54,062 nucleotides of DNA from an uncultured Porticoccaceae bacterium. Lineage in GTDB: Bacteria > Pseudomonadota > Gammaproteobacteria > Pseudomonadales > Porticoccaceae. The stretch covers positions 2,868 through 56,929 of the forward strand of contig CAYWXW010000003.1 of the NCBI GenBank assembly GCA_964462265.1, written 5' to 3'. The notes under the pieces were generated by a model. The model was not told the DNA's origin, ran no database searches, and worked only from the letters and a program-made list of their open reading frames with translations. Each line of letters begins with the position of its first letter. The first letter of the stretch is position 1. Positions 28,410 to 50,778 of the stretch are shown piece by piece. Made by a program: the position numbers and the translations under genes.

Positions 28410-29516
28410 TTAAATTTTCGTTAATAAAATTTTCTCAATATTATCATAATCCCAATATGGTATAATAACTAATTTAATCCCATTTTTATTTGCGTAATCT
28501 TTTTTTATATTATCTCTTAATTGACTCAATCTAAATTTATTATTATTATTTATGTTACCAAATGAATTATTATTATAATGCTGTTCACCATTATATTCTA
28601 TTAAAATTTGTTGATCAGGTATATAAAAATCAAAAATCAGCTGTTTCTTAAATATACAATCTTTAAATTTCATTTGATGTATATATTTAATTTTCATTTC
28701 CTTTAAAATTTTAATAATCCGCATCTCACCTTTAGATGATTTACATAGTGGACAACCATTACCTCTTTTATGATCTGATAAAACTTGTTCAAATTCTCCA
28801 TGTTTAGGGCATATAATTTTTATTTTTGATGTTGCTCTTAAATTAGGATAATTATATTTTGGATAATTATATTTACCATTATGTATTAATTTACATTCAT
28901 TAATATGTTCATCAAAACTCATTAAATAATTATTAGAGCATAATTTACACCCGTTTCCTTCTAAATGTGATGATAATCTTTGTTTAAATATCCCATGCTT
29001 AGGACATTTAATTTTAACATACTCATTAGCCTTGATACCTTTTTTAATTAAAGAATAATCATATTTATTATTATGAATTTTATTTGCAAGATTTATATAA
29101 TAATCACGTTTCTTTCTTGACTTTGATAATTTTTCAATTCCGCATTTAGGACAACCATAACCATTAATATGTGACGATAATCTTTGTTTAAACCATCCGT
29201 GCTTAGGACATTTAATCATTATTTTATCTTTACACGTTTTTATATCTTGATATTTTGGATAGTGATAAAAATTATCATGTTTTACTTTAGCTTCATTTAT
29301 ATAATCTTGATAACTTTTATCTTTTATATTTGGGTTGCAAGTAGGGCAGATTGCACCAGATTTATGATGTGATAAAAATTGATAAAAAACACCATGTAAA
29401 GGACAAATGATTTGTATTTTTTTATTAGTTATGAATTTTTGATTTAAAGGATACTTATAAAAATAATCATGTTGCAAATTACATTCATGTATATGTTTTT
29501 CCTTAGATTTTTTCAT
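28410..29516 (-). CDS. homing-endonuclease-like protein: four zinc-ribbon repeats plus a Vsr/DUF559-type PD-(D/E)XK nuclease motif
   Basis: Four repeats of I.CP.HG.F.Q.L..H..G.GCP.C, then EMRIIKILKEMKIKYIHQ...LIFDFYIPDQQILIEYNGEQHY. Confidence 0.6.
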   Translation of the reverse strand: MKKSKEKHIHECNLQHDYFYKYPLNQKFITNKKIQIICPLHGVFYQFLSHHKSGAICPTCNPNIKDKSYQDYINEAKVKHDNFYHYPKYQDIKTCKDKIMIKCPKHGWFKQRLSSHINGYGCPKCGIEKLSKSRKKRDYYINLANKIHNNKYDYSLIKKGIKANEYVKIKCPKHGIFKQRLSSHLEGNGCKLCSNNYLMSFDEHINECKLIHNGKYNYPKYNYPNLRATSKIKIICPKHGEFEQVLSDHKRGNGCPLCKSSKGEMRIIKILKEMKIKYIHQMKFKDCIFKKQLIFDFYIPDQQILIEYNGEQHYNNNSFGNINNNNKFRLSQLRDNIKKDYANKNGIKLVIIPYWDYDNIEKILLTKI

Positions 29517-31054
29517 TATTTTTTAACTTTAAAATTACCAACAAGATTAAAATCATAGCTATGATTTTTATAATATTTTAATCGATCATATCTATGACGA
29601 TAACATATACCCCCATATAAAAGTTCTTTTCTTTTAAAAAATAACTTATCTATTAAATCATAAATTATAACAATATTTTTACCTTTATATAATCTCATTC
29701 CACGACCAATTGCCTGTAATATGACTTGTTTTGATAAAACATCCTCAACCATATAAACAAAAAAGATATTATTGATACTTATACCCTCACCAAAAGTTTT
29801 AAACGACCCTACAACAACCTGATTGTCTTTTCGGTCTAGTTGTTTTTGTATTAATAACCTCTTTTTGTTTGGTATAGTACCATCCACGTAATGAATATCT
29901 TTATTTGGGAAACATTTAGTTAATTCATCATATAATTTCTTACCATATGATCTTTGTTTAAATAATATTATTGCGTTATGATGTGTTTTAGAAAGTTTTT
30001 TAATTATATAATCAATTTTACCCATTTTTTTAGCATAATATTTCAATTCCTCATCATAAGACATTGTTTTATTTTTCAATACACCATAATCAAATATAAC
30101 ACCTTTTATTTTTACCTTAGCAACATATTTATTCTCTTGTAAATATTTTGATGTTGTTGCTACTTTAACTCGACCATATAAACCTTCTATTGTTTTTCTT
30201 TTTAGTATCTCTACCTCATCCTCAGTAAAGATACTACCAGTTAAACCAATTCTATACACAGCATTTTTACATGATTGTACTATCTCAATAATCTTCTTTA
30301 CACTAACACTCAATTTGTTATCATCTGCTGAGTTATGAACCTCATCAACAAAAAGATATTTAAACATTTTAAAAAAATCAGGATCAAAATTTTGAAAACT
30401 CTGCCATGTACCAACTATGATTTTATGATGATCTTCAATGATCTTATCATACTCTGAATGAACCATTTTAATATATTTTTTTATATTATCTTCATTATTT
30501 AAATCATATTTTTCAAAATCTTTATATAACTGATCGACTAATTGTGTACGTGGAACTATTATTAATATTCTTTTATTAACTCTAACCTTATTAATGAATA
30601 ACTTACATAAACCATATGTGCTTAATGTTTTACCTGATGATGTTGGTGATATTATTGTTAATCTTTTTAGATTAAAACCCATCAAAATTGTTTTATATTG
30701 ATAATCTCTTAAAGGATAATATGGTTTAGGTAAATTCCATTTTTTGACTATTTTCTTTAAATCAGTAAGATTTAACTTACTGCCTTTGATTTTTAGATTA
30801 GGAGCAATATACACGTCATTATATTCAAGAGTTCGTATAAATCTCTTTAACTCATAAAATAAACCATAAGGCAGTAAGTGTCTTTCTTCGAGCAGAGTAA
30901 TATCATAAATCTTTTTATTTTTATAACCAGTCTCTTTATTTTCTTTATATACTTCTTTTTTATAAGTAAAATACTTTTCAATCTTATCAATTAGATTTGT
31001 ATCATCACTTTCAAGTTCAATATAATTATTATTTTTCTTACGTATATAAAGCAT
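29516..31054 (-). CDS. uvsW: SF2 DNA/RNA helicase (T4 UvsW-like)
   Basis: LRDYQ, SPTSSGKT, FVDEVHN, LTGS and QAIGRGMR. IVGTWQSF parallels T4 VVGTWQTV. Confidence 0.85.
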   Translation of the reverse strand: MLYIRKKNNNYIELESDDTNLIDKIEKYFTYKKEVYKENKETGYKNKKIYDITLLEERHLLPYGLFYELKRFIRTLEYNDVYIAPNLKIKGSKLNLTDLKKIVKKWNLPKPYYPLRDYQYKTILMGFNLKRLTIISPTSSGKTLSTYGLCKLFINKVRVNKRILIIVPRTQLVDQLYKDFEKYDLNNEDNIKKYIKMVHSEYDKIIEDHHKIIVGTWQSFQNFDPDFFKMFKYLFVDEVHNSADDNKLSVSVKKIIEIVQSCKNAVYRIGLTGSIFTEDEVEILKRKTIEGLYGRVKVATTSKYLQENKYVAKVKIKGVIFDYGVLKNKTMSYDEELKYYAKKMGKIDYIIKKLSKTHHNAIILFKQRSYGKKLYDELTKCFPNKDIHYVDGTIPNKKRLLIQKQLDRKDNQVVVGSFKTFGEGISINNIFFVYMVEDVLSKQVILQAIGRGMRLYKGKNIVIIYDLIDKLFFKRKELLYGGICYRHRYDRLKYYKNHSYDFNLVGNFKVKK

Positions 31055-31955: not shown

Positions 31956-33632
31956 TTAATATATATATACAGCATTACCACAATCAAATATTCTTAGATA
32001 ATCATTATTCAACATATTTTGATAACCAGATAAATTAGGATTAAAATTATCCAATATTTTTTCCTGTTTATGTTTTTGAAATTTAAGACGAGAATGTAAA
32101 ATTAATGTATTTTTCTTAAAATAAAAATAATTTGGTTGAGATATTTTTAGTAACTTAAAATTTGATTTAAGATAGCTTTCTCCAGTAAAATATCTTAAAT
32201 CAACATAAGAAATAATTGATGTTGATTTAAGATCATTTACTATAAATTTAATTAATTTAGAAAACCCACCAATAACACTAAATTGCTTAATAGTAAAAGA
32301 TCTTAATATTTCATAATCATAATTTTTATTATATCTCGATTTACCCATAGACATAATATATACTGGCTTATTTTCATAATATAAAGCATATATTTTATCT
32401 GATCTTATATAACCTTGTAGATGGTTCTCTTTAACTAATTTTTTATATAAATCATTATTGATTATTTTAACCTCACACTTACGAGCATATATTTTAATTT
32501 TATTTAAATTTAACCTATTAAAAAGAATTGATTTTACAATGTTATTTTTTAAAATCCATTCATTTTGAAATATATGTATAATATCTATGTTAAAATTTTT
32601 CTTAAAAAACTCACTTTTATCTTTATGATAATTTTTTGATTTTAACTGATCATTATGCCAATATATACCGTCGTATTCAATTCCTAATTTATAATCAGGT
32701 AAATAAACATCGATCTCTAAAGATTTTGAATTAAATGAAAATCTTTTATTATATATTACTTTAATACCATAGCTTTGAATAAATACACCTATTTCTTTTT
32801 CAGCTTTAGATTTACCATATTTATTACATTTTGAACATCCATGTCCGTGTTTATGATTATCTAAAGATTGTTTAAACCAACCATGATTTGGACATTTTAT
32901 CATAATTTTCGTAAAAACACCATCATCTAACTCTTGATATTTAGGATAATGATAAAAGTTCTCATGTGCTTTTTTACAAACCTCTATATTATCACTATAA
33001 GATAATAAACTATTTTTGGTTCTTTTATCATAAGCACATTTAGGGCAACCTTGTCCGCTTAAATGATTTTGTATATTTTGCCTAAAATTTCCATGTATAG
33101 GACATTTTATAACTATATAATCACTACAATTATCTATTTCTTGATTTTTTGGATAGATATAAAAATTATTATGAATTTCTTTAAATCTTTCAATATAATC
33201 ATAATAAGTTTTTTTATGCGTATTTATTAAATTCTCTTTAAAACAATCTTTACAACCAGAATTACCGCTAGCATGTAAACGAACTTTCACCTTAAATTTA
33301 CCATGCTTTGGGCATATAACACTAATTATACTATTATGATTCTTTATTTCTTGATTTTTTGGATAAATGTATTTATTACCATAAACATCTTTAAATTTTA
33401 TTAAATAATCTTCATATTTTTTTACTTTTCTTTTTTTATTACCACATTTAGGACAACCTTGACCACTTAAATGATTCCTTAGAGTTTGTTCAAATTCTCC
33501 ATGTTTAGGGCATATTATCTTTATTTTTGTATTATTATTTTCTATTTCTTGATTTTTTGGATAGATATAAAAATTATTATGAATATCTTTAGCTTTAATT
33601 ATATATTCTTTATATGTTTTCTTTTTAGGCAT
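31956..33632 (-). CDS. homing-endonuclease-like protein (zinc-ribbon repeats, Vsr/DUF559-type nuclease motif, Hef-like C-terminal domain)
   Basis: Four CP.HG.F...H.SGQGCPKC-type repeats paralogous to those in 28410-29516. Then EKEIGVFIQSYGIKV...LEIDVYLPDYKLGIEYDGIYWHN, and ARKCEVKII...ENHLQGY...GGFSKL...SYVDLRYFTGESY, as in T-even Hef-like proteins. Confidence 0.6.
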   Translation of the reverse strand: MPKKKTYKEYIIKAKDIHNNFYIYPKNQEIENNNTKIKIICPKHGEFEQTLRNHLSGQGCPKCGNKKRKVKKYEDYLIKFKDVYGNKYIYPKNQEIKNHNSIISVICPKHGKFKVKVRLHASGNSGCKDCFKENLINTHKKTYYDYIERFKEIHNNFYIYPKNQEIDNCSDYIVIKCPIHGNFRQNIQNHLSGQGCPKCAYDKRTKNSLLSYSDNIEVCKKAHENFYHYPKYQELDDGVFTKIMIKCPNHGWFKQSLDNHKHGHGCSKCNKYGKSKAEKEIGVFIQSYGIKVIYNKRFSFNSKSLEIDVYLPDYKLGIEYDGIYWHNDQLKSKNYHKDKSEFFKKNFNIDIIHIFQNEWILKNNIVKSILFNRLNLNKIKIYARKCEVKIINNDLYKKLVKENHLQGYIRSDKIYALYYENKPVYIMSMGKSRYNKNYDYEILRSFTIKQFSVIGGFSKLIKFIVNDLKSTSIISYVDLRYFTGESYLKSNFKLLKISQPNYFYFKKNTLILHSRLKFQKHKQEKILDNFNPNLSGYQNMLNNDYLRIFDCGNAVYIY

Positions 33633-42067: not shown

Positions 42068-44002
42068 ATGAATGATATTTTAATAAAAAAATTAGAAAAA
42101 GCTTTAGATGCATATGATAAAGGTCAAGCAATTATGAGCGATTATGATTATGATTGTCTTATAGCTGAGTTACGTTCATCTGACCCTAAACATAAATTTT
42201 TACAAAAAATAAGTAATCAGGGTGGTGATTTCAAACATAAAACAAAAATGTTGAGTCTTGATAAAATACACACACCAGATGAACTCATAAAATGGTTTAA
42301 TAAAGTTAAATATTTTTGTTCATTTAAATTGGATGGTATAGCCATATCGATACATTATATACTACGTGATGATTATTTTTATATTCATAAAGCAGTTACA
42401 AGAGGTGATGGTAGTATAGGAAAAGATGTTACCCATATTATTCATGGTATTGATCTTCCTAATAAGATACAAAAAACAAATGAAAATTATACATCATTTG
42501 AGGTTAGAGGGGAAGCAATTATGGATAGAGCGGTATTTGCTGAACTTAAAAAAAGTTCTGATTTAGATTATAATACTCCTCGTAATTTAGTAGCAGGATC
42601 ATTTAATACTCTAAAAGACCCAGATATATTAAGAAAAAGAGGTATTAAATTCATTGCATATAATTTAATTGCTGATGGAATATATAATAATATCTCTGAT
42701 GATGATAGACTCAATATTAAATTTTCAATCAATTGGAAATATTTAAGATCAATTGGTTTTGAAACTGTACCTAAAATAGTAACATCTAAATATGATGAGA
42801 TAATGAAATGGATAAAAGAGACAGAAGATAGACGTAATAAAATACCATATGATATTGATGGTATAGTCATACAAAGAAATAATATCTATAGATTTTTACA
42901 AGAGGGTTTCACTGATCATCATCCTAAAGGCGCAATAGCATATAAATTCAAACCAAATATCACTAAAGCAATAATCAATGCTATTACATGGCAACTTGGT
43001 CGTACTGGTATATTAACACCTGTTGCTGAGATTGAGCCTATTGAATTAAATGGTGTTTTAATTAAAAGGGCAACATTACATAATTTAACATTTATCGAAG
43101 ATAAAAATATTACTATCGGATCAGTTGTTGAGTTACAAAGATCAGGTGATGTAATACCTAAAATAAACAAAGTATTAGAATGGAATGATGATAGTTATTT
43201 AACTATACCTAAAAAATGTCCAAAATGCGGAGAACCAATTATTAAAAAACTCAGCATATCAAATCAATATAATCTTTATTGTGATAATCCAACATGTAAA
43301 GGTAAGTTGGAATTAAAAATACTTTATTGGTTAAATATGACAGGTTGTAAAGGTATTGGTGATAAATTAATAATTAAAATGGTACGTAGAAGATTTATAA
43401 GTAAAATTGCTGATCTCTATAGTCTATCACCAAAAAGATTAATGATGTTGGATAAGATTAAAATAAAATCTGCAAATAATATTTGGAATGCTATACAAGA
43501 TACAAAAGAAATAACAACAGCTCAATTCATGGCTGGTCTTGGTATTGAAGGTGTTGGTATGGGTATGGCTGAAAAAATATCTGAACATTTTGATAATGAT
43601 TTTAGTGAGATATTAAGATGTAGCTATCCTGATTTTGAAGAAATTGATGGTGTCGGATCAATATTAGCAAAAAATATTGATAATTATTTTACACTAAATT
43701 ATGAAGAGATTGCAGAGTTGCTCTCTATAGTAAAAATAAAAAATGTTAATGATAGACTTAACTCTCAGCAAAAAGATGGCATCACAGGTCTCTCCTTTTG
43801 TATTTCAGGTAAAGTATCAAAAGGTAAAGCATATTATTATAATTTAATAGATTCTTACGGTGGTATCATACATACAAGTGTGAGTAAAAAATTAGATGTG
43901 TTAATTAGTAATGAAACTAGTACTTCTAAAGTTAAAAAAGCAAATGAGTATAAAATTAAAATTATAAATGAAAAAGAGCTTAATGATTTAATTTATAAAT
44001 GA
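42068..44002 (+). CDS. ligA: NAD-dependent DNA ligase (LigA family)
   Basis: Adenylation KxDG (CSFKLDG), VRGEAIM, TPRNLVAGS, DIDGIVIQ and AIAYKF. Zinc finger CPKCG...CDNPTC, HhH repeats, and a BRCT-like GLSFCISG. Confidence 0.9.
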   Translation: MNDILIKKLEKALDAYDKGQAIMSDYDYDCLIAELRSSDPKHKFLQKISNQGGDFKHKTKMLSLDKIHTPDELIKWFNKVKYFCSFKLDGIAISIHYILRDDYFYIHKAVTRGDGSIGKDVTHIIHGIDLPNKIQKTNENYTSFEVRGEAIMDRAVFAELKKSSDLDYNTPRNLVAGSFNTLKDPDILRKRGIKFIAYNLIADGIYNNISDDDRLNIKFSINWKYLRSIGFETVPKIVTSKYDEIMKWIKETEDRRNKIPYDIDGIVIQRNNIYRFLQEGFTDHHPKGAIAYKFKPNITKAIINAITWQLGRTGILTPVAEIEPIELNGVLIKRATLHNLTFIEDKNITIGSVVELQRSGDVIPKINKVLEWNDDSYLTIPKKCPKCGEPIIKKLSISNQYNLYCDNPTCKGKLELKILYWLNMTGCKGIGDKLIIKMVRRRFISKIADLYSLSPKRLMMLDKIKIKSANNIWNAIQDTKEITTAQFMAGLGIEGVGMGMAEKISEHFDNDFSEILRCSYPDFEEIDGVGSILAKNIDNYFTLNYEEIAELLSIVKIKNVNDRLNSQQKDGITGLSFCISGKVSKGKAYYYNLIDSYGGIIHTSVSKKLDVLISNETSTSKVKKANEYKIKIINEKELNDLIYK

Positions 44003-45553: not shown

Positions 45554-46699
45554 ATGAAATTAATTAAACCTAGTTTTTATGAGCTTGATAAAGACGTAGA
45601 GTTAGATTACAAAAAGAAAATTGAAAGATGCACTCGCATTGCCTATAAATCAGAAGACAAAATGGAAAATATGCTATTTAATGTTGATACACAAAATCAA
45701 ATGAATGATAAGGAAAAAGAAGAAGCAGAGAAAAGGAAAAAAGAAATAGAAATAGACTCTAAAAGAATTACTTTTTTATCTTCCGTTATCAATAGAGGTC
45801 ATACATCTGTATTAGAACATTATAGAGTATGCTTCAAAATTACTGGTGATTTTATAAATGATTTTATAGAATTTGAAGAAAGACCAGCCCCATCATTTTT
45901 TAAAAAGAATAAAACAATAAAAGTTGCCAATAAAACAAAATTTATTGAACACCCACATATTCGATTTAATTATGATTATAAAGAGGAAGCTGTATATTTG
46001 AGTGGTAATTTGAGAGCATTTTATGATTTACATTATCATGGTGATGATTCTAAACGTAAATCAATGCAGTATATTATGTCACATTTAGGTAGACATTATA
46101 GTATTTTCTTTACACATCAAACAAATTTTCTATCTGATGACATAGAAGAGATTGATCCTTTTACAATTCCTAATTTGGAAATAAGATCATATCATACATA
46201 TAAAACAATGATTTTTGTTACAAATAGAGGGGTTAGTCATGAATCAGTTCGACACAGAGTAGCTAGCTTTTCACAGGAAAGTACGAGATATTGCTCCTAT
46301 GATAAAGATAAGTTTGGTAATGAGATTACATTTATAGATCCAACAACAACATTAGACTCGATATTTAAAAATGATAAAAAATATGGTACGCTAGATTATA
46401 TGAAACAAAATATACCTGAGATCATAGATACAATAAATATGATTTATGGTGATATAGAAAAAGCATACATGCATCTTAAATCTTTAGGTTGTCCACCTGA
46501 TGTTGCTCGTAATGTTTTACCAATAGGTGTTAAAACTGAATTTGCGATAACACAAACAATGCATTGGTGGAGAGAATTTTTTAAATTAAGAACAACAAAG
46601 CATGTGCATCCCGATATGTTATATTTATCTCGTCCTTTATTGGGTCATTTTAAAGAAAAATACCCTGAATTGTTTAATGATATAAGTTATGGAGATTAA
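45554..46699 (+). CDS. thyX: FAD-dependent thymidylate synthase ThyX (with extra inserted segments)
   Basis: RGHTSVLEH and the ThyX signature RHRVASFSQESTRY (RHRxxSxxxxSxRY). 381 aa is much longer than typical ThyX. Confidence 0.85.
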   Translation: MKLIKPSFYELDKDVELDYKKKIERCTRIAYKSEDKMENMLFNVDTQNQMNDKEKEEAEKRKKEIEIDSKRITFLSSVINRGHTSVLEHYRVCFKITGDFINDFIEFEERPAPSFFKKNKTIKVANKTKFIEHPHIRFNYDYKEEAVYLSGNLRAFYDLHYHGDDSKRKSMQYIMSHLGRHYSIFFTHQTNFLSDDIEEIDPFTIPNLEIRSYHTYKTMIFVTNRGVSHESVRHRVASFSQESTRYCSYDKDKFGNEITFIDPTTTLDSIFKNDKKYGTLDYMKQNIPEIIDTINMIYGDIEKAYMHLKSLGCPPDVARNVLPIGVKTEFAITQTMHWWREFFKLRTTKHVHPDMLYLSRPLLGHFKEKYPELFNDISYGD

Positions 46700-47379: not shown

Positions 47380-47874
47380 ATGAGACAAGGTTGGAATAAA
47401 TATTTTATTGAGTTAACCAAAGAGATAGCTAAAAGATCAACATGCATCAGAAGACAGGTTGGTGCGATAATTATTAAAGATAATCGCATTTTAGCAACTG
47501 GTTATAATGGTGCTCCATCTAGTATTGATCATTGCACTGATAAAGGTATATGCATGCGTACAGAGAGAAATATAAAATCGGGAACAAACATTGAAACTTG
47601 TATGGCTGTACATGCAGAACAAAATGCATTAATACAATGTGCTAAATATGGTCTATCTGCTAAAGACTCTAAAATATTTATTACTCACCAACCTTGTTCA
47701 GTTTGTACTAAGCTAATAATACAGGCTGGTATTACTGAAATCTTTTTTATTGAGTCTTACCCTGATGAATTTGCAATGGAATTACTCTCTATGAGCAAAA
47801 TAAATGTTTACCAATACAATGGCATTAATTTTGATATTATATTTGAACATGGTCAACTTCAATATGGAGAATAG
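47380..47874 (+). CDS. cd: dCMP deaminase
   Basis: Zinc-binding HAEQNAL and PCSVCTKLI, with GYNGAP upstream. Confidence 0.88.
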   Translation: MRQGWNKYFIELTKEIAKRSTCIRRQVGAIIIKDNRILATGYNGAPSSIDHCTDKGICMRTERNIKSGTNIETCMAVHAEQNALIQCAKYGLSAKDSKIFITHQPCSVCTKLIIQAGITEIFFIESYPDEFAMELLSMSKINVYQYNGINFDIIFEHGQLQYGE

Positions 47875-47876
47875 TT

Positions 47877-48533
47877 ATGGGTAACACTAATAACTCTTAT
47901 ATAAAAGATTTTGATAAGATTGTTGATTTTGAATTAAATGGAAAGACTTTGATCATATTAGATGGTACAGATAATAGTGGTAAAACAACAACAATAAATG
48001 AATTAAGAGAGTTATATAAAGATAGTGTTAATTTCGTTCATTTTCCTAGTGATAATCTCGTTAAATCTTTTGAATTTAAAAGATGTATCAATAATCCAAA
48101 TGTATGCAATAATACCGAATTTTTAAAAAATCTCATGATAGAAATAATTGATACCATAAGTAAATTAGACTCAGATTATATTATTGTTGATCGCATGATT
48201 TTATCATCAATGGTCTATCAGGGTCTCTATGATTTTATGAATGATGTGATAATTAATTTATATAAAGAGGTTTTTGAAAAATTAAAGATAAAAGAAATAT
48301 ATCATATAAACATGATTGGTTTTATCCAAAACGATGATTCAGAAAATGATCCAACAAAAAAGAAAATTGATGCAGATATAACATATCAAACAAAATGGAA
48401 TAATCTTTTATCGTTTATATATGAGTCAAATGAATCAATTTTTAATAATATCTATAGTTTCAAAATAAATAAAGATAATATTCATACCGTAAGAAAGAAT
48501 ATAATTAATATCATAAATAATATCATAGTTTAA
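47877..48533 (+). CDS. tmk: thymidylate (dNMP) kinase-like P-loop kinase
   Basis: ILDGTDNSGKTTT P-loop and DRMILSSMVYQG (Tmk DRY..S..AYQ-like). Confidence 0.65.
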   Translation: MGNTNNSYIKDFDKIVDFELNGKTLIILDGTDNSGKTTTINELRELYKDSVNFVHFPSDNLVKSFEFKRCINNPNVCNNTEFLKNLMIEIIDTISKLDSDYIIVDRMILSSMVYQGLYDFMNDVIINLYKEVFEKLKIKEIYHINMIGFIQNDDSENDPTKKKIDADITYQTKWNNLLSFIYESNESIFNNIYSFKINKDNIHTVRKNIINIINNIIV

Positions 48534-48552: not shown

Positions 48553-50049
48553 ATGATGTATACTCTTTATAAAGGCATTTTTATTTTTATTGCTGTTTCT
48601 TATTCTTATTTTTTGAGATTCATAACAACAGATTTAGTTATGAACATATTTTATATACTTAAAGGTTTTTTTGACGGAGAACTTTTTTGCGCTATTAGTG
48701 GTAAAGAACAATTTTATAAAGTTAAACAAGCCAATTCAGAAAAAGAAAAAGATCAATGGATAACAAGAGTTTATGAATATTTAGAAGACCCACTGCATGG
48801 TAAAATTGATTGGTTTCCTAGATTTTTAACTGTTATTATTCTAAGACGTTATTATGGAGATTGTGTTGCCGAGTATGAAAAAATAATTACAGAAAGAGGA
48901 AATATACCCATTAAAGATTTAAATAAAAATGATAAAGTTTTATCCTATAATTTTAATTTAAAGAAATATGAATTTAAAGAAATACTAAATCACGTCAATA
49001 AAGGTAAAAAAAATATTGTACGAGTACATTATAAAACTGGTAATTATAGCGATTTTACACCTGATCATAAAATATATCATGGGAATATAGATTATAAAGT
49101 ATCTAAAATAAAAGACATTGACATAAATAACCATAATGAAAGGAAAGTGCCAGTTATAACTAAAATGCCATATACAATTCAAGATAATGATTATTATACT
49201 GAGGATATTTGTTTTTTATTGGGTTATTATATGGCTGAAGGTTATTATTATAAAAAACGATGTTATATAGGTGGTCACGATATACCTAAATATATAATAC
49301 CAATACTAGATAAATATGATATTAAATATTCTTTGAAAATAAGAGAAGGTGATAATTTACCAATTATAGAATTTTTAACCTCTGATTTTCGTAATAATAT
49401 ATTAGGTGAGATGGTTTTAAATAGTTTTAATATTAATCCACCAAAAATATTATATAATTTACCACCTAAAAAACTTCAAAAAATATTAGATGGATATTTT
49501 TTAGGTGATGGTCATATGAGAGAAAATAAAGAAAAATGTTATTCCACATCTTGTGATATTTTAAAAGATTTTATTGTTGAAATATCTTTTAAAATTGGAA
49601 ATCCTGTTGCACCATATCATCAGTTAAAACATGGTGGTGTTGGTAATAAACCGATTTGGAGAATATATGATCGCCCAAAAGCGTTTCATAAAAAAAATTA
49701 TGGTTATACTAATTTAAGTGAAACACATATTAAAAAAATTGAAAACTTAAATGATAAAGTTAATGTTTATGATATTGAGGTTAAAGATAATCATAACTTT
49801 ATTATGGCAAATAGTGGAGTAATAGTCCATAATTGTGACGATTTTGGAATATTAGCTAGATATATGTATGGTGACGGTAAACTTTATTCAATATTACCAT
49901 ATAATAAAAAATATTGGAATAGAATGCATGTTGTCTATGTACGTAATAATAAAATATATAGTTCTGATAAAATATATTTTATGAGTTTACAAGAGTATTT
50001 AGATAGATATTATAATAGTATTGATTATTTTAAATTAAAAGTTATTTAA
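48553..50049 (+). CDS. membrane-anchored transglutaminase-like (BTLCP-type) cysteine peptidase interrupted by an intein
   Basis: The joined exteins read ...DWFPRFLTVIILRRYYGD|CDDFGILARYMYGDG...MHVVYV...SSD, a GDC(D/E)D(F/Y) Cys-His-Asp layout. There is an N-terminal hydrophobic segment. Confidence 0.6.
   Translation: MMYTLYKGIFIFIAVSYSYFLRFITTDLVMNIFYILKGFFDGELFCAISGKEQFYKVKQANSEKEKDQWITRVYEYLEDPLHGKIDWFPRFLTVIILRRYYGDCVAEYEKIITERGNIPIKDLNKNDKVLSYNFNLKKYEFKEILNHVNKGKKNIVRVHYKTGNYSDFTPDHKIYHGNIDYKVSKIKDIDINNHNERKVPVITKMPYTIQDNDYYTEDICFLLGYYMAEGYYYKKRCYIGGHDIPKYIIPILDKYDIKYSLKIREGDNLPIIEFLTSDFRNNILGEMVLNSFNINPPKILYNLPPKKLQKILDGYFLGDGHMRENKEKCYSTSCDILKDFIVEISFKIGNPVAPYHQLKHGGVGNKPIWRIYDRPKAFHKKNYGYTNLSETHIKKIENLNDKVNVYDIEVKDNHNFIMANSGVIVHNCDDFGILARYMYGDGKLYSILPYNKKYWNRMHVVYVRNNKIYSSDKIYFMSLQEYLDRYYNSIDYFKLKVI
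48862..49833 (+). mobile_element. class 1 intein with LAGLIDADG homing endonuclease domain (324 aa)
   Basis: Starts CVAEYEKIITERGNIPIKDL. Block B is FTPDH. LAGLIDADG motifs LLGYYMAEGY and ILDGYFLGDGH. Ends VYDIEVKDNHNFIMANSGVIVHN, followed by the +1 Cys. Confidence 0.85.
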
Positions 50050-50501
50050 TCAACGAACTGTGAGAATTGTCTTTCTTCACCTTTAAGAAAAGCTCTATAA
50101 TCTTCAACTGAAAAATTTGGACAGGTTTTACCATTATAAAGCTCATAATGACCAACAACATCATCAATATTTAATTCGTATTTTTCAATCAACTCTAAAA
50201 CAAGTTCAGTCATTGCGGTAAACTGTTTATTTGAAAATTCTTTATCACCGATGAGACAAATAGCTATCGCACCTTCATTATGATTCTTAATTGATGAAGG
50301 AGGTGAACCAATATCTCTACCAATTTCAATTTGACCATTTAAAGCTTCCAGAAATGCGGCTGGTTTTAACCAACCATTACAAATTACAAAATGATAACCA
50401 CAACCAGACCATCCTCGCTCTTTGTGCCAATCATCGATTATTGTCTGTGAACCCCATGTAGATGCACTACAATGTAAATGAATTTTATTTATTTTTCTCA
50501 T
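50046..50501 (-). CDS. N-acetylmuramoyl-L-alanine amidase endolysin (T7 lysozyme/PGRP fold)
   Basis: IHLHCSAS...DDWHKERGWSGCGYHFVI...GHYEL...KTCPNF carries the Amidase_2 zinc ligands. Confidence 0.85.
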   Translation of the reverse strand: MRKINKIHLHCSASTWGSQTIIDDWHKERGWSGCGYHFVICNGWLKPAAFLEALNGQIEIGRDIGSPPSSIKNHNEGAIAICLIGDKEFSNKQFTAMTELVLELIEKYELNIDDVVGHYELYNGKTCPNFSVEDYRAFLKGEERQFSQFVD

Positions 50502-50778
50502 CAGTTTTACCTACAACATTGTTAATAATAGTATCATTTTTGCTGTTTAAAGCCTTGATTAATTTCTCTGCCTTTGGAAAGACGACATAACCAAGCAAAA
50601 ATATAAACACATTAAAAAGTGTTGCTGGCGCATCCTGTGGTGTTTTGCCTTTATAAACAGCGATAGCATAGAGCACCCAAAAAAACACCAAACAAGTGAA
50701 TGTTAACCACAATAAGACTGCACCTTTAGATATTGTATCTTGACCATTTTTATCCATGATTAAATGTTTAATATGCAT
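50485..50778 (-). CDS. putative holin
   Basis: 97 aa with two hydrophobic helices (AVLLWLTFTCLVFFWVLYAIAVY and LFNVFIFLLGYVVF) and a charged C-terminus. It overlaps the endolysin start. Confidence 0.6.
   Translation of the reverse strand: MHIKHLIMDKNGQDTISKGAVLLWLTFTCLVFFWVLYAIAVYKGKTPQDAPATLFNVFIFLLGYVVFPKAEKLIKALNSKNDTIINNVVGKTDEKNK

What the first reader, a model, noticed from the sequence alone, without database searches (positions are those of the whole stretch)
48553..50049. LAGLIDADG intein inserted exactly at the catalytic Cys of a transglutaminase-like (BTLCP-type) cysteine peptidase
Residues 104-427 (nt 48862-49833) have all the intein hallmarks. These are an N-terminal Cys (CVAEYEKIITERG), block B TPDH, two LAGLIDADG motifs and a C-terminal VIVHN followed by Cys. 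Removing the intein joins ...LRRYYGD to CDDFGILARYMYGDG...MHVVYV...SSD. The junction recreates a GDC(D/E)D(F/Y) nucleophile motif with downstream His and Asp, as in bacterial transglutaminase-like cysteine proteinases. The protein also has an N-terminal membrane anchor. Inteins usually sit in replication or nucleotide-metabolism enzymes, and I do not know of one reported in this enzyme class. The gene converges on the endolysin and holin genes, so the peptidase may act on the envelope.
Basis: partly seen in the sequence, partly recalled or inferred. Interest (0 to 1): 0.7.

Follow-up and report, generated by a model that had tools for sequence, protein, structure and literature searches.

The report
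Intein inside phage LapG-like peptidase
A self-splicing mobile protein element (an intein) sits directly in front of the catalytic cysteine of a small, undescribed phage enzyme distantly related to the bacterial surface-remodelling protease LapG, so the enzyme can only form after the intein removes itself; the intein is ordinary in kind, but I found no report of one in this type of host protein.

Summary
ORF 48553-50049 (+, 498 aa) carries a canonical class-1 LAGLIDADG intein at aa 104-427 (nt 48862-49833). Pfam Intein_splicing scores 52 bits against a cut-off of 35.8. All splicing blocks and both endonuclease motifs are intact.

An intein-less homologue from a syntenic metagenomic phage (P0001, 57% identity) aligns without gaps across the restored GDCDD junction. 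This fixes the intein boundaries and the homing site.

The spliced 174-aa extein matches no Pfam, PHROG or NCBIfam model. It belongs to a family of about 36 metagenomic representatives, and every other member lacks an intein.

A family profile finds only LapG (BTLCP, peptidase C93) among PDB sequences (E 7.7e-6). Profile-profile comparison with PF06035 members gives 88.7% probability. A pLDDT-96 model has LapG as its only confident Foldseek match.

D103 and C104 are invariant and H135 is present in 32 of 33 members. The conserved third residue is most likely S146, giving a Cys-His-Ser triad.

The N-terminal hydrophobic helix, an extracytoplasmic location and a role at the envelope are inferred, not shown.

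Verdict: a real new intein in an extein class where I found none reported, inside an uncharacterised phage LapG-like family. It is a new member of known kinds and of moderate interest.

The parts
48553..50049 (+). Precursor gene: 498 aa, 59.4 kDa; N-extein + intein + C-extein, stop codon included
48553..48861 (+). N-extein, aa 1-103, ending ...RRYYGD (D103 is invariant in the family)
48553..48672 (+). N-terminal hydrophobic, aromatic-rich helix (aa 1-40; AF2 helix 2-40). Putative signal-anchor with a basic N-flank, and with conserved D27 and N31 in its second half.
   Evidence: Best 19-residue Kyte-Doolittle mean is 1.5 here and 1.5-2.5 in most relatives. Inferred, not proven.
48772..48816 (+). 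Motif YxYxxDPxxGxxDW (aa 74-88). It aligns with 'FNYETDPITGASDDYW' of L. pneumophila LapG, in the N-terminal half of the crystallised chain; equivalence to LapG's calcium-binding loop is inferred from knowledge of LapG and was not checked here.
   Evidence: D79 30/33, G83 30/33, D86 24/33
48862..49833 (+). Class-1 intein with LAGLIDADG homing endonuclease, aa 104-427 (324 aa, 38.1 kDa)
48862..48900 (+). Intein block A, CVAEYEKIITERG (Cys1 nucleophile)
49057..49068 (+). Intein block B, TPDH (TxxH)
49207..49248 (+). LAGLIDADG motif 1 (ICFLLGYYMAEGYY; acidic residue E229)
   Evidence: aligned to PI-PkoII 'LLGYYVSEGY'
49474..49518 (+). LAGLIDADG motif 2 (LQKILDGYFLGDGHM; acidic residue D319)
   Evidence: aligned to PI-PkoII 'FLEGYFIGDGD'; Pfam LAGLIDADG_3 20.9 bits, below the 22.5 cut-off
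49765..49833 (+). Intein blocks F and G (VYDIEVKDNHNFIMAN, SGVIVHN), with penultimate His and terminal Asn427
49834..50046 (+). C-extein, aa 428-498, beginning CDDFG
49834..49836 (+). Cys428: the +1 splice nucleophile and, after splicing, the invariant predicted catalytic Cys104 of the peptidase
49927..49929 (+). His459 (H135 of the spliced protein) in MHVVYV; predicted general base, aligned with the LapG 'AHMVL' His
   Evidence: 32/33
49960..49962 (+). Ser470 (S146 of the spliced protein) in the family motif VYSSG; proposed third triad residue
   Evidence: 30/33 Ser; Thr, Asp, Ala in the rest. By the hairpin register it pairs with His+2. Inference.
49966..49968 (+). It is not conserved.
   Evidence: Asp in 1/33, Gly in 28/33
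47877..48533 (+). Upstream gene, thymidylate kinase. Together with dCMP deaminase (47380-47874) it is syntenic with the intein-less locus L001.
50046..50501 (-). Convergent Amidase_2 endolysin; its stop codon overlaps the stop of the peptidase gene
50485..50778 (-). 97-aa ORF with two hydrophobic segments, a putative holin by position only. A 60%-identical homologue converges directly on the intein-less allele in L001.

Best explanation
The gene encodes a 59-kDa precursor. A canonical class-1 intein with an apparently intact LAGLIDADG homing endonuclease interrupts a 174-aa phage protein between Asp103 and the nucleophilic Cys104.

Splicing (inferred): Cys1 makes the N-S acyl shift, Cys+1 carries out the trans-thioesterification, and Asn427 cyclises with help from His426. 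This would release a 38-kDa intein and ligate a 21-kDa protein with the family-invariant GDCDD motif restored. The residue used as the +1 splice nucleophile is the enzyme's own catalytic Cys. The insertion also separates the N-terminal part (YxYxxDPxxGxxDW, D103) from the part carrying Cys, His135 and Ser146. The enzyme therefore cannot form before splicing.

Homing (inferred): at the DNA level the endonuclease is expected to cut intein-less alleles, such as the one on contig L001, at or near GGT GAT|TGT GAC GAT during co-infection. Repair from the intein-bearing copy would then spread the intein.

Extein (shown by homology): it belongs to an uncharacterised, apparently phage-restricted family of small transglutaminase-fold cysteine peptidase homologues. 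Its closest known relatives are the periplasmic BTLCP enzymes LapG and HvyA.

Extein mechanism and role (inferred): it most likely uses Cys104-His135 with Ser146 in place of the BTLCP Asp. Acidic residues flank the Cys as in the Ca2+-dependent LapG. An N-terminal hydrophobic helix probably tethers it to the inner membrane with the catalytic domain outside the cytoplasm. There it would cleave or modify a host envelope or surface component during infection.
For: Intein:
- Pfam PF14890 gives 52.3 bits against a cut-off of 35.8.
- PDB matches to the PI-PkoII endonuclease domain and to the Spl DnaX mini-intein cover both LAGLIDADG motifs and blocks F and G.
- All catalytic splice residues are present.

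Boundaries and homing site:
- P0001 (167 aa) aligns without gaps at 57% identity across the junction.
- Its contig L001 has the same gene order: dCMP deaminase, thymidylate kinase, this gene, then a convergent homologue of the 97-aa ORF with two hydrophobic segments (putative holin).
- 14 of the 15 nt around the insertion point are identical.
- Of 37 representative hits among 1.84 billion proteins, only the window's own protein carries the insertion.

Extein identity:
- In the family alignment D103 and C104 are invariant. H135 is 32/33, S146 30/33, D105 30/33 and D79 30/33.
- The profile finds LapG only among PDB sequences (4fgo E 7.7e-6, 4u65 E 0.024).
- hhalign against PF06035 members gives 88.7% probability and E 2.6e-6.
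- The AF2 model has pLDDT 96.0 and pTM 0.90.
- The Foldseek top hit is LapG 4u65_E at probability 1.00. Weak hits to other transglutaminase or papain folds follow (menin, NAT1, XPC, USPs, PeiP).

Literature:
- LapG has a transglutaminase-like fold, a C-H-D triad and calcium bound near the active site (PMC4359373).
- BTLCPs are predicted to be exported and to act on periplasmic or extracytoplasmic targets, and HvyA needs its Cys, His and Asp/Asn (PMC4241560).
- A Cys-His-Ser/Thr triad has been proposed in the same superfamily for vasohibins (PMC4866520).

N-terminal helix: hydrophobic with a basic N-flank in most members and modelled as one helix, residues 2-40.
Against: - No experimental or transcript evidence for expression, splicing, endonuclease activity or proteolysis.
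- No family member reaches the Pfam Peptidase_C93 model at E <= 1, and Transglut_core reaches only E 0.012 in 2 of 33 members.
- The sequence and profile alignments to LapG stop just after the His.
- The Foldseek TM-score is only 0.46.
- The assignment of Ser146 as the third triad residue rests on conservation and on hairpin register. Model coordinates could not be inspected.
- The equivalent of the LapG calcium ligand D139 (position 106) is Asp in only 14 of 33 members.
- The best 19-residue hydrophobicity in this protein (1.5) is borderline for a transmembrane helix, and the helix contains R22 and D27.
- An intein needs to fold in order to splice. That sits awkwardly with co-translational export of the catalytic domain.
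- Genomic contexts of relatives are heterogeneous and give no consistent functional partner.
Confidence: 0.8

Rival explanations
1. The extein has the LapG-like fold but is not a protease. It catalyses another acyl-transfer reaction of the superfamily, such as transamidation or cross-linking, deamidation, or N-acetyl or other acyl transfer, on a host or phage target.
For: - The superfamily includes transglutaminases, N-acetyltransferases and phytochelatin synthases (PMC4866520).
- The BTLCP domain of HvyA is discussed as possibly cross-linking, hydrolysing or deamidating (PMC4241560).
- NAT1 appears among the weak Foldseek hits.
- The third residue and the region after the His differ from LapG.
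Against: The only confident sequence and structure matches are to LapG, a demonstrated protease. The NAT, menin and XPC hits have E >= 0.8.
Confidence: 0.2
2. The enzyme is a lysis accessory. It would be a membrane-tethered peptidoglycan endopeptidase or amidase, or a processor of a lysis protein, working with the adjacent amidase and putative holin.
For: - The gene converges on and overlaps the Amidase_2 endolysin gene. The ORF with two hydrophobic segments (putative holin) is next to that.
- In L001 the homologue of that ORF abuts the intein-less allele directly.
- The phage-encoded pseudomurein endoisopeptidase PeiP has a related fold and appears as a weak Foldseek hit (rank 44).
- In L010 a weak endolysin-like gene and LysM proteins lie downstream.
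Against: - The gene is on the opposite strand from the lysis genes. It is the last gene of a thymidylate-metabolism block (ThyX, dCMP deaminase, thymidylate kinase).
- Other relatives sit after SSB, a trypsin-like protease or unknown genes, with no lysis neighbours.
- The PeiP hit has E 9.0.
- No similarity to NlpC/P60 or CHAP families was found.
Confidence: 0.15
3. The N-terminal helix is not a membrane anchor, or the topology is N-out/C-in. The enzyme would then work in the cytoplasm, where the intein can fold and splice normally, on a cytoplasmic host or phage target.
For: - Reported inteins lie mainly in replication, repair and transcription proteins, which are cytoplasmic (PMC4760082).
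- The helix carries conserved polar residues (D27 20/33, N31 22/33) and R22.
- Its hydrophobicity is borderline.
- Several members (P0015, P0016, P0033, P0036) lack or shorten it.
Against: - Most members have a basic N-flank followed by 17-20 hydrophobic residues, as in signal anchors.
- Characterised BTLCPs are periplasmic.
- The acidic residues flanking the Cys resemble the calcium site of LapG, which suits an extracytoplasmic enzyme.
Confidence: 0.35
4. The intein is a decaying remnant that no longer splices, or splices poorly. The gene in this phage would then be effectively inactivated.
For: - The gene is an accessory gene found in few phages.
- Asp at the -1 position can disturb splicing in some inteins (general knowledge, not tested here).
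- Only one intein-bearing allele is known.
Against: - All splicing residues and both endonuclease acidic residues are intact in one open frame of 498 aa.
- The identical protein occurs on four contigs from two sources, JGI and Logan.
- The exteins keep every family-invariant residue.
Confidence: 0.07

Closest known systems
LapG (BTLCP, MEROPS C93, Pfam PF06035; PDB 4FGO/4FGP/4FGQ, 4U65)
   Same: - It is the only confident match by sequence profile, profile-profile comparison and fold search.
- Shared motifs are YxYxxDPxxGxxD(Y/W)W, GDC(D/E)D(F/Y)A and xHxV.
- It has a nucleophilic Cys flanked by acidic residues, and a similar domain size.
   Different: - No family member reaches PF06035 at E <= 1.
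- The third triad residue is Ser146 instead of the Asp of 'PLILDN', and the His-to-third-residue hairpin is shorter.
- An N-terminal hydrophobic helix replaces a cleaved Sec signal peptide.
- The family was found only on metagenomic contigs, where the recognisable neighbouring genes are phage-like.
- No LapD or LapA partners are known for it, and this allele carries an intein.
HvyA of Caulobacter crescentus (BTLCP that blocks capsulation and controls sensitivity to phage phiCr30; PMC4241560)
   Same: It belongs to the same BTLCP group as LapG. It is periplasmic, depends on its Cys and His, and remodels the cell surface in a way that matters for phage adsorption.
   Different: It is a host protein with a signal peptide and a C/H/D(N) triad. 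No direct sequence match to it was tested here. The functional analogy is a lead only.
Vasohibins and vasohibin-like proteins (transglutaminase-like proteases proposed to have a Cys-His-Ser/Thr triad; PMC4866520)
   Same: They belong to the same superfamily. Ser or Thr is proposed in the third triad position, and there is an acidic residue two positions after the Cys, aligned with LapG D139.
   Different: No vasohibin appears in the PDB profile search or in the Foldseek top 50. They are eukaryotic tubulin carboxypeptidases. The resemblance is in triad type only.
Canonical class-1 LAGLIDADG inteins (for example PI-PkoII of Thermococcus kodakarensis Pol, 2CW7; phage inteins in NrdD, PhoH and a DNA methylase)
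   Same: They share Cys1, TxxH, two LAGLIDADG motifs, blocks F and G, His-Asn and +1 Cys, and insertion at an invariant active-site residue.
   Different: Identity to any intein in 50,697 phage records is only 24-37% over partial alignments. No close relative was found in IMG/VR. The extein is a small cysteine-peptidase homologue rather than a replication, repair or nucleotide-metabolism protein.
Inteins in other proteases (chloroplast ClpP of Chlamydomonas eugametos; archaeal LonB; cited in PMC4760082)
   Same: They are inteins that interrupt a proteolytic enzyme.
   Different: Those are cytoplasmic or stromal ATP-dependent serine protease systems. Here the host is a papain/transglutaminase-fold cysteine enzyme whose own nucleophile doubles as the +1 splice residue.

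Membership tests
Intein (class 1, Hint fold) | In-frame insertion in a conserved host protein whose homologues lack it, with a clean junction | tested here: met
   The spliced sequence aligns without gaps to P0001. All 32 other aligned family members lack the insert.
Intein (class 1, Hint fold) | Splicing-domain profile above the curated threshold | tested here: met
   PF14890 gives 52.3 bits against a cut-off of 35.8, E 7.3e-14.
Intein (class 1, Hint fold) | Catalytic residues: Cys/Ser1, block B TxxH, penultimate His, terminal Asn, +1 Cys/Ser/Thr | tested here: met
   C104, T169-H172, H426-N427 and C428 are read directly from the sequence.
Intein (class 1, Hint fold) | Protein splicing actually occurs | not testable with these tools
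   Needs expression followed by SDS-PAGE and mass spectrometry.
LAGLIDADG homing endonuclease (double-motif) | Two LAGLIDADG motifs with conserved acidic residues inside a recognisable endonuclease domain | tested here: met
   PI-PkoII (2cw7) gives E 3e-6, aligning both motifs (E229, D319). Pfam LAGLIDADG_3 gives only 20.9 bits, below the 22.5 cut-off.
LAGLIDADG homing endonuclease (double-motif) | Cleaves the intein-less allele (homing) | not testable with these tools
   A candidate target exists in L001, GGTGAT|TGTGACGAT. No intein-less variant was seen in contigs from the same sample.
BTLCP / Peptidase_C93 (Pfam PF06035) | Match to the curated family model | tested here: not met
   No PF06035 hit at E <= 10 for the extein, nor at E <= 1 for any of 33 members. 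No NCBIfam hit either.
BTLCP / Peptidase_C93 (Pfam PF06035) | Detectable homology to characterised members (LapG) | tested here: met
   Profile against PDB sequences: 4fgo E 7.7e-6 and 4u65 E 0.024. hhalign: 88.7% probability, E 2.6e-6.
BTLCP / Peptidase_C93 (Pfam PF06035) | Transglutaminase-like fold that superposes on LapG | tested here: met
   AF2 pLDDT 96.0. Foldseek 4u65_E: probability 1.00, E 2e-3, TM 0.46 over 154 columns.
BTLCP / Peptidase_C93 (Pfam PF06035) | Conserved Cys and His of the triad in the aligned positions | tested here: met
   C104 33/33 and H135 32/33, aligned to GDCED and AHMV of LapG.
BTLCP / Peptidase_C93 (Pfam PF06035) | Third triad residue Asp (or Asn) | tested here: not met
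The conserved residue is S146 (30/33), with Asp in one member only.
BTLCP / Peptidase_C93 (Pfam PF06035) | Export to the periplasm (Sec signal peptide) | tested here: inconclusive
   There is a hydrophobic N-terminal helix with a basic N-flank, but no signal-peptide predictor was available. Hydrophobicity is borderline and polar residues lie inside the helix.
BTLCP / Peptidase_C93 (Pfam PF06035) | Acidic calcium ligands around the nucleophile | tested here: inconclusive
   D103 is 33/33 and D105 is 30/33 (plus 2 Glu). The LapG D139 equivalent (D106) is Asp in only 14/33 (PMC4866520).
Transglutaminase-like / papain-like cysteine protease superfamily (Pfam clan CL0125) | A helix bearing the nucleophilic Cys packed against a beta-sheet bearing the His, and remote hits restricted to this fold class | tested here: met
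   Secondary-structure order H104-115, E119-125, E135-140, E143-146. Many of the top Foldseek hits are LapG, menin, NAT1, XPC, USPs and PeiP. Weak Transglut_core and DUF553 hits occur in 2 members each.
Vasohibin family (PF14822) | Sequence or structural similarity to vasohibins | tested here: not met
   Vasohibins are absent from the PDB profile hits, the Foldseek top 50 and the Pfam scans.

The most novel reading that the evidence does not exclude
The intein acts as an obligatory maturation switch for a membrane-anchored enzyme that works outside the cytoplasm. The phage's LapG-like peptidase would stay inert until protein splicing rebuilds its active site, either before or after the catalytic domain crosses the inner membrane. 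Once active, it would remodel the host surface from the periplasm, for example by releasing an adhesin or blocking capsule formation, as LapG and HvyA do. The effect could be to control superinfection, detachment from the microbial mat, or release of progeny. I know of no precedent for an intein in an exported enzyme, nor for a phage-encoded LapG-type surface-remodelling protease.
Probability: 0.2. Interest if true: 0.75.

Novelty: new member of a known kind. Interest (0 to 1): 0.5.

Why it matters
Surveys place inteins mainly in replication, repair and nucleotide-metabolism proteins (PMC4760082). This one sits in a small cysteine-peptidase homologue and uses the enzyme's own catalytic Cys as its +1 nucleophile. 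That adds an extein class and a homing site that is defined by an empty allele.

The work also uncovers a phage protein family of about 36 representatives at 50% identity. No member scored significantly against any Pfam, PHROG or NCBIfam model, although it is related to LapG and HvyA, the bacterial enzymes that control adhesin release and capsulation. That gives a testable lead on how some phages may modify the host surface.

If the catalytic domain really is exported, the precursor would be a natural test case for how protein splicing and membrane translocation are ordered. The short extein and canonical Cys/Cys junction also make it a convenient system for splicing-dependent activation of a protease.

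Tried and rejected
- The extein alone gave nothing against Pfam (E <= 10) or PHROGs.
- All 33 family members scanned singly gave nothing against PHROGs or NCBIfam. Against Pfam there were only two weak Transglut_core/DUF553 hits.
- Megablast of the locus found nothing in 50,697 phage records. Neither did tblastn of the extein, P0039 or P0036.
- The word-index search found only 1 relative with the extein and 5 with the family alignment. The exhaustive HMMER search was needed to find the family.
- AF2 with a 2-sequence alignment was useless (pLDDT 46.5). The 2-sequence profile found nothing in PDB sequences.
- The search for related loci with the family alignment failed on IMG/VR, metagenome contigs and GTDB genomes. 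With the intein it failed on IMG/VR. No bacterial or prophage copy and no host clue were obtained.
- I tried to look for intein-less variants in the source population. The second showed only the same 19-kb contig at depth 18.5, with no joint. Contigs cannot show rare variants.
- Promoter and terminator scans were at background level. No tRNA genes were found.
- The primary LapG papers (PMC3416269, PMC3416268) are not held. The LapG residue roles are therefore taken from PMC4359373 and PMC4866520.
Cys-His-Ser distances could not be measured.
- Rejected: NlpC/P60 or CHAP identity, as there were no hits.
- Rejected: vasohibin membership, as there were no hits.
Full report
**1. The observation**

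ORF 48553-50049 (+) is a single open frame of 498 aa. A GAGG ribosome-binding site lies just upstream of the ATG.
- Cys104 opens 'CVAEYEKIITERG'.
- 'TPDH' is at aa 169-172.
- The two LAGLIDADG motifs are 'ICFLLGYYMAEGYY' (aa 219-232) and 'LQKILDGYFLGDGHM' (aa 308-322).
- Block F is 'VYDIEVKDNHNFIMAN'.
- 'SGVIVHN' ends at Asn427, and Cys428 follows.

The insert is 324 aa (nt 48862-49833). Pfam Intein_splicing matches residues 116-427 with E 7.3e-14 and 52.3 bits, against a curated cut-off of 35.8. LAGLIDADG_3 is just under its cut-off, at 20.9 against 22.5 bits. Against PDB sequences, the central part aligns to the endonuclease domain of PI-PkoII (2cw7, E 3e-6) across both LAGLIDADG motifs, including the acidic residues E229 and D319. 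The ends align to the Spl DnaX mini-intein (7cfv, E 3e-5). This is a canonical class-1 intein with an apparently intact homing endonuclease, not a chance pattern.

**2. Boundaries and the empty site**

The conceptually spliced 174-aa protein finds one close relative in the 5.8-billion-protein index: P0001, 167 aa, E 5.4e-55. The two align at 57% identity with no gap. The alignment runs straight through ...GDCDD... at the predicted junction.

P0001 lies on a 2.1-kb JGI contig (L001) with the same gene order as the window: dCMP deaminase, thymidylate kinase, this gene, then a convergent small ORF with two hydrophobic segments. The neighbours are 68%, 49% and 60% identical to the window's proteins. 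L001 is therefore a related phage carrying the intein-less allele. At the DNA level the empty site reads GGT GAT|TGT GAC GAT. The window's flanks read GGA GAT|...|TGT GAC GAT, so 14 of 15 nt are identical.

**3. The extein family**

On its own the extein matches nothing in Pfam or PHROGs and nothing in 50,697 GenBank phage records. An exhaustive HMMER search of 1.84 billion representative proteins found 37 hits with E <= 1e-3, of which 20 had E <= 1e-10. The 34 family hits besides the window's own protein (P0002, 497 aa, matched in two stretches) and P0034 are 67-256 aa and lack the insert; P0034 (1066 aa) matched only through the hydrophobic N-terminal helix, in 15 repeated stretches, and was set aside as probably spurious.

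In a 33-sequence alignment (A2), conservation is as follows:
- D103 and C104 are invariant.
- H135 is 32/33, D105 is 30/33 with 2 Glu, D79 is 30/33 and G83 is 30/33.
- S146 is 30/33, with Thr, Asp and Ala in the other three.

It cannot be a conserved catalytic residue.

**4. What the family is related to**

A profile of A2 searched against all PDB sequences gives two relevant hits, and both are LapG: Legionella pneumophila LapG (4fgo/4fgp/4fgq, E 7.7e-6) and Pseudomonas fluorescens LapG (4u65, E 0.024). The alignments run from the YxYxxDPxxGxxDW motif through GDC(D/E)DFA to the His strand.

I collected four PF06035-annotated proteins using the LapG fragment and aligned them with the two PDB fragments. 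hhalign between this alignment and A2 gives 88.7% probability and E 2.6e-6 over 74 columns, with Cys on Cys and His on His.

With the 33-sequence alignment, AlphaFold2 gives pLDDT 96.0 and pTM 0.90, against 46.5 with two sequences. Foldseek against the PDB returns LapG (4u65_E) as the only confident match: probability 1.00, E 2e-3, TM 0.46 over 154 columns. Weak hits (E >= 0.8) to other transglutaminase or papain folds follow: menin, arylamine N-acetyltransferase 1, XPC, USPs and the phage pseudomurein endoisopeptidase PeiP.

As membership of Peptidase_C93 it fails. No member reaches PF06035 at E <= 1, no NCBIfam or PHROG model matches, and the Asp is missing.

**5. The active site**

In BTLCPs the Asp lies in 'PLILDN', 17 residues after the His. 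In this family the His strand (135-140) is followed by a two-residue turn and a second strand (143-146). In that hairpin register S146 pairs with V137 (His+2). This is the position I infer the BTLCP Asp to occupy. One member has Asp and one has Thr at position 146.

A Cys-His-Ser/Thr triad has been proposed for vasohibins in the same superfamily. In that proposal the hydroxyl orients the His (PMC4866520). HvyA tolerates Asp-to-Asn at this position (PMC4241560). I therefore propose Cys104-His135-Ser146.

The acidic residues flanking the Cys (D103 and D105) resemble those of LapG, where calcium binds next to the active site (PMC4359373). The equivalent of the LapG ligand D139 is Asp in only 14 of 33 members. 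Calcium dependence is possible but not shown.

**6. How it most likely works**

Shown:
- the anatomy of the intein;
- the empty allele;
- homology of the extein to LapG, with conserved Cys and His.

Inferred:
- The precursor (59.4 kDa) splices to a 21.3-kDa enzyme and a 38.1-kDa intein.
- Cys428 first serves as the +1 splice nucleophile and afterwards as the catalytic Cys104.
- The insertion separates D103 and the N-terminal motif from the Cys-His-Ser part, so the enzyme is inactive until it is spliced.
- The endonuclease targets the invariant, and therefore constrained, D-C-D codons of intein-less alleles during co-infection.

The N-terminal 40 residues are hydrophobic and aromatic-rich, and they have a basic N-flank in most members. 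The best 19-residue Kyte-Doolittle mean is 1.5 in this protein and about 1.5-2.5 in most relatives. AF2 models them as one long helix. By the positive-inside rule this suggests a signal anchor with the catalytic domain outside the cytoplasm. That agrees with the periplasmic location of LapG and HvyA and with the statement that BTLCPs act on extracytoplasmic targets. However, R22, D27 and N31 lie within the helix, so the topology is uncertain.

**7. Context and function**

The window is part of a distant T4-like phage with 25.7% G+C. It encodes:
- a gp20-type portal, topoisomerase II subunits, a family-B DNA polymerase, a gp32-like SSB, and gp41- and Dda-like helicases;
- an SbcC-like ATPase, a NAD-dependent ligase, ThyX, dCMP deaminase and thymidylate kinase.

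The portal is at most 33-34% identical to any GenBank phage. The sequence comes from a microbial-mat metagenome, and the identical protein occurs on four contigs.

The peptidase gene is the last gene of the thymidylate-metabolism block. It converges on an Amidase_2 endolysin, with overlapping stop codons, and on a 97-aa ORF with two hydrophobic segments and no family hit. More distant relatives lie after SSB and converge on a DarB-like giant gene (L002-L007). Others lie after a trypsin-like protease (L008), near ThyX-like, dGTP-diphosphohydrolase and LysM genes (L010), or beside unknown genes (L012, L017).

There is thus no consistent partner. The link to lysis rests on two related phages only. 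I consider surface or envelope remodelling from the periplasm the most likely role, by analogy with LapG (adhesin release) and HvyA (capsule prevention and phage sensitivity). I give it modest confidence. A dedicated lysis role or a cytoplasmic role remain open.

**8. Novelty**

The intein is only 24-37% identical, over partial alignments, to inteins in GenBank phages: NrdD of Lactococcus 949-like phages, a methylase of Pseudomonas phage Lana, and PhoH of Campylobacter phages. It has no close relative in IMG/VR.

Intein surveys list replication, repair, nucleotide-metabolism and packaging proteins, and among proteases only ClpP and LonB (PMC4760082, PMC5050341). Only one paper in the library contains both 'intein' and 'transglutaminase-like', and it is unrelated. 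A 2023 classification of papain-like cysteine proteinases does not mention inteins.

Within the limits of a text search, this is a new extein class and a new insertion site, in a protein family that no curated library covers. In kind, both parts are known: a class-1 LAGLIDADG intein at an active-site nucleophile, and a member of the transglutaminase-like superfamily.

**9. Verdict**

Novelty: a new member of known kinds. Interest is moderate (0.5). It would be higher if the enzyme proves to be exported, because the intein would then gate an extracytoplasmic protease.

Noticed in passing
window 28410-29516 (-) and 31956-33632 (-): Two paralogous free-standing HNH homing-endonuclease ORFs (both match phrog_559) bracket the region that holds the gp41-like helicase gene (29516-31054). 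The genome therefore carries several mobile endonucleases besides the intein.
   Followed up: no
window 45554-46699 (+): ThyX is unusually long at 381 aa. The Pfam Thy1 match comes in two stretches with the core at aa 217-372, which implies about 100 or more extra residues in the N-terminal half. No intein signature was seen.
   Followed up: partly
window 42068-44002 (+): A NAD-dependent (LigA-type) DNA ligase with OB, HhH and BRCT domains sits in a T4-like replication module.
   Followed up: no
window 50485-50778 (-); L001 1520-1795 (-): A 97-aa ORF with two hydrophobic segments has no Pfam or PHROG hit. It is 60% identical to the ORF that converges directly on the intein-less allele in L001, where no amidase gene lies between them. 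It is a putative holin by position only.
   Followed up: partly
window 50046-50049: The stop codons of the convergent peptidase and amidase genes overlap, so there is no intergenic space for a terminator. The L001 genes overlap in the same way (1520-1527).
   Followed up: no
L002-L007, L017, L018 and the window: In several unrelated contigs the family gene is the last gene of a same-strand block and converges on opposite-strand genes. In L002 that gene is a DarB-like giant protein fragment, and in L017 it is an 882-aa DUF2207_C protein.
   Followed up: partly
L010 3823-5152: A 35.8-kb phage contig carrying a distant family member also encodes a ThyX-like protein and a protein with a dGTP_diPhyd_N domain. 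This hints at modified-nucleotide metabolism.
   Followed up: no
family alignment A2, positions 27 and 31 of the spliced protein: The N-terminal hydrophobic helix has a conserved polar pair, D27 (20/33) and N31 (22/33), often preceded by Pro. That is unusual for a plain membrane anchor.
   Followed up: partly
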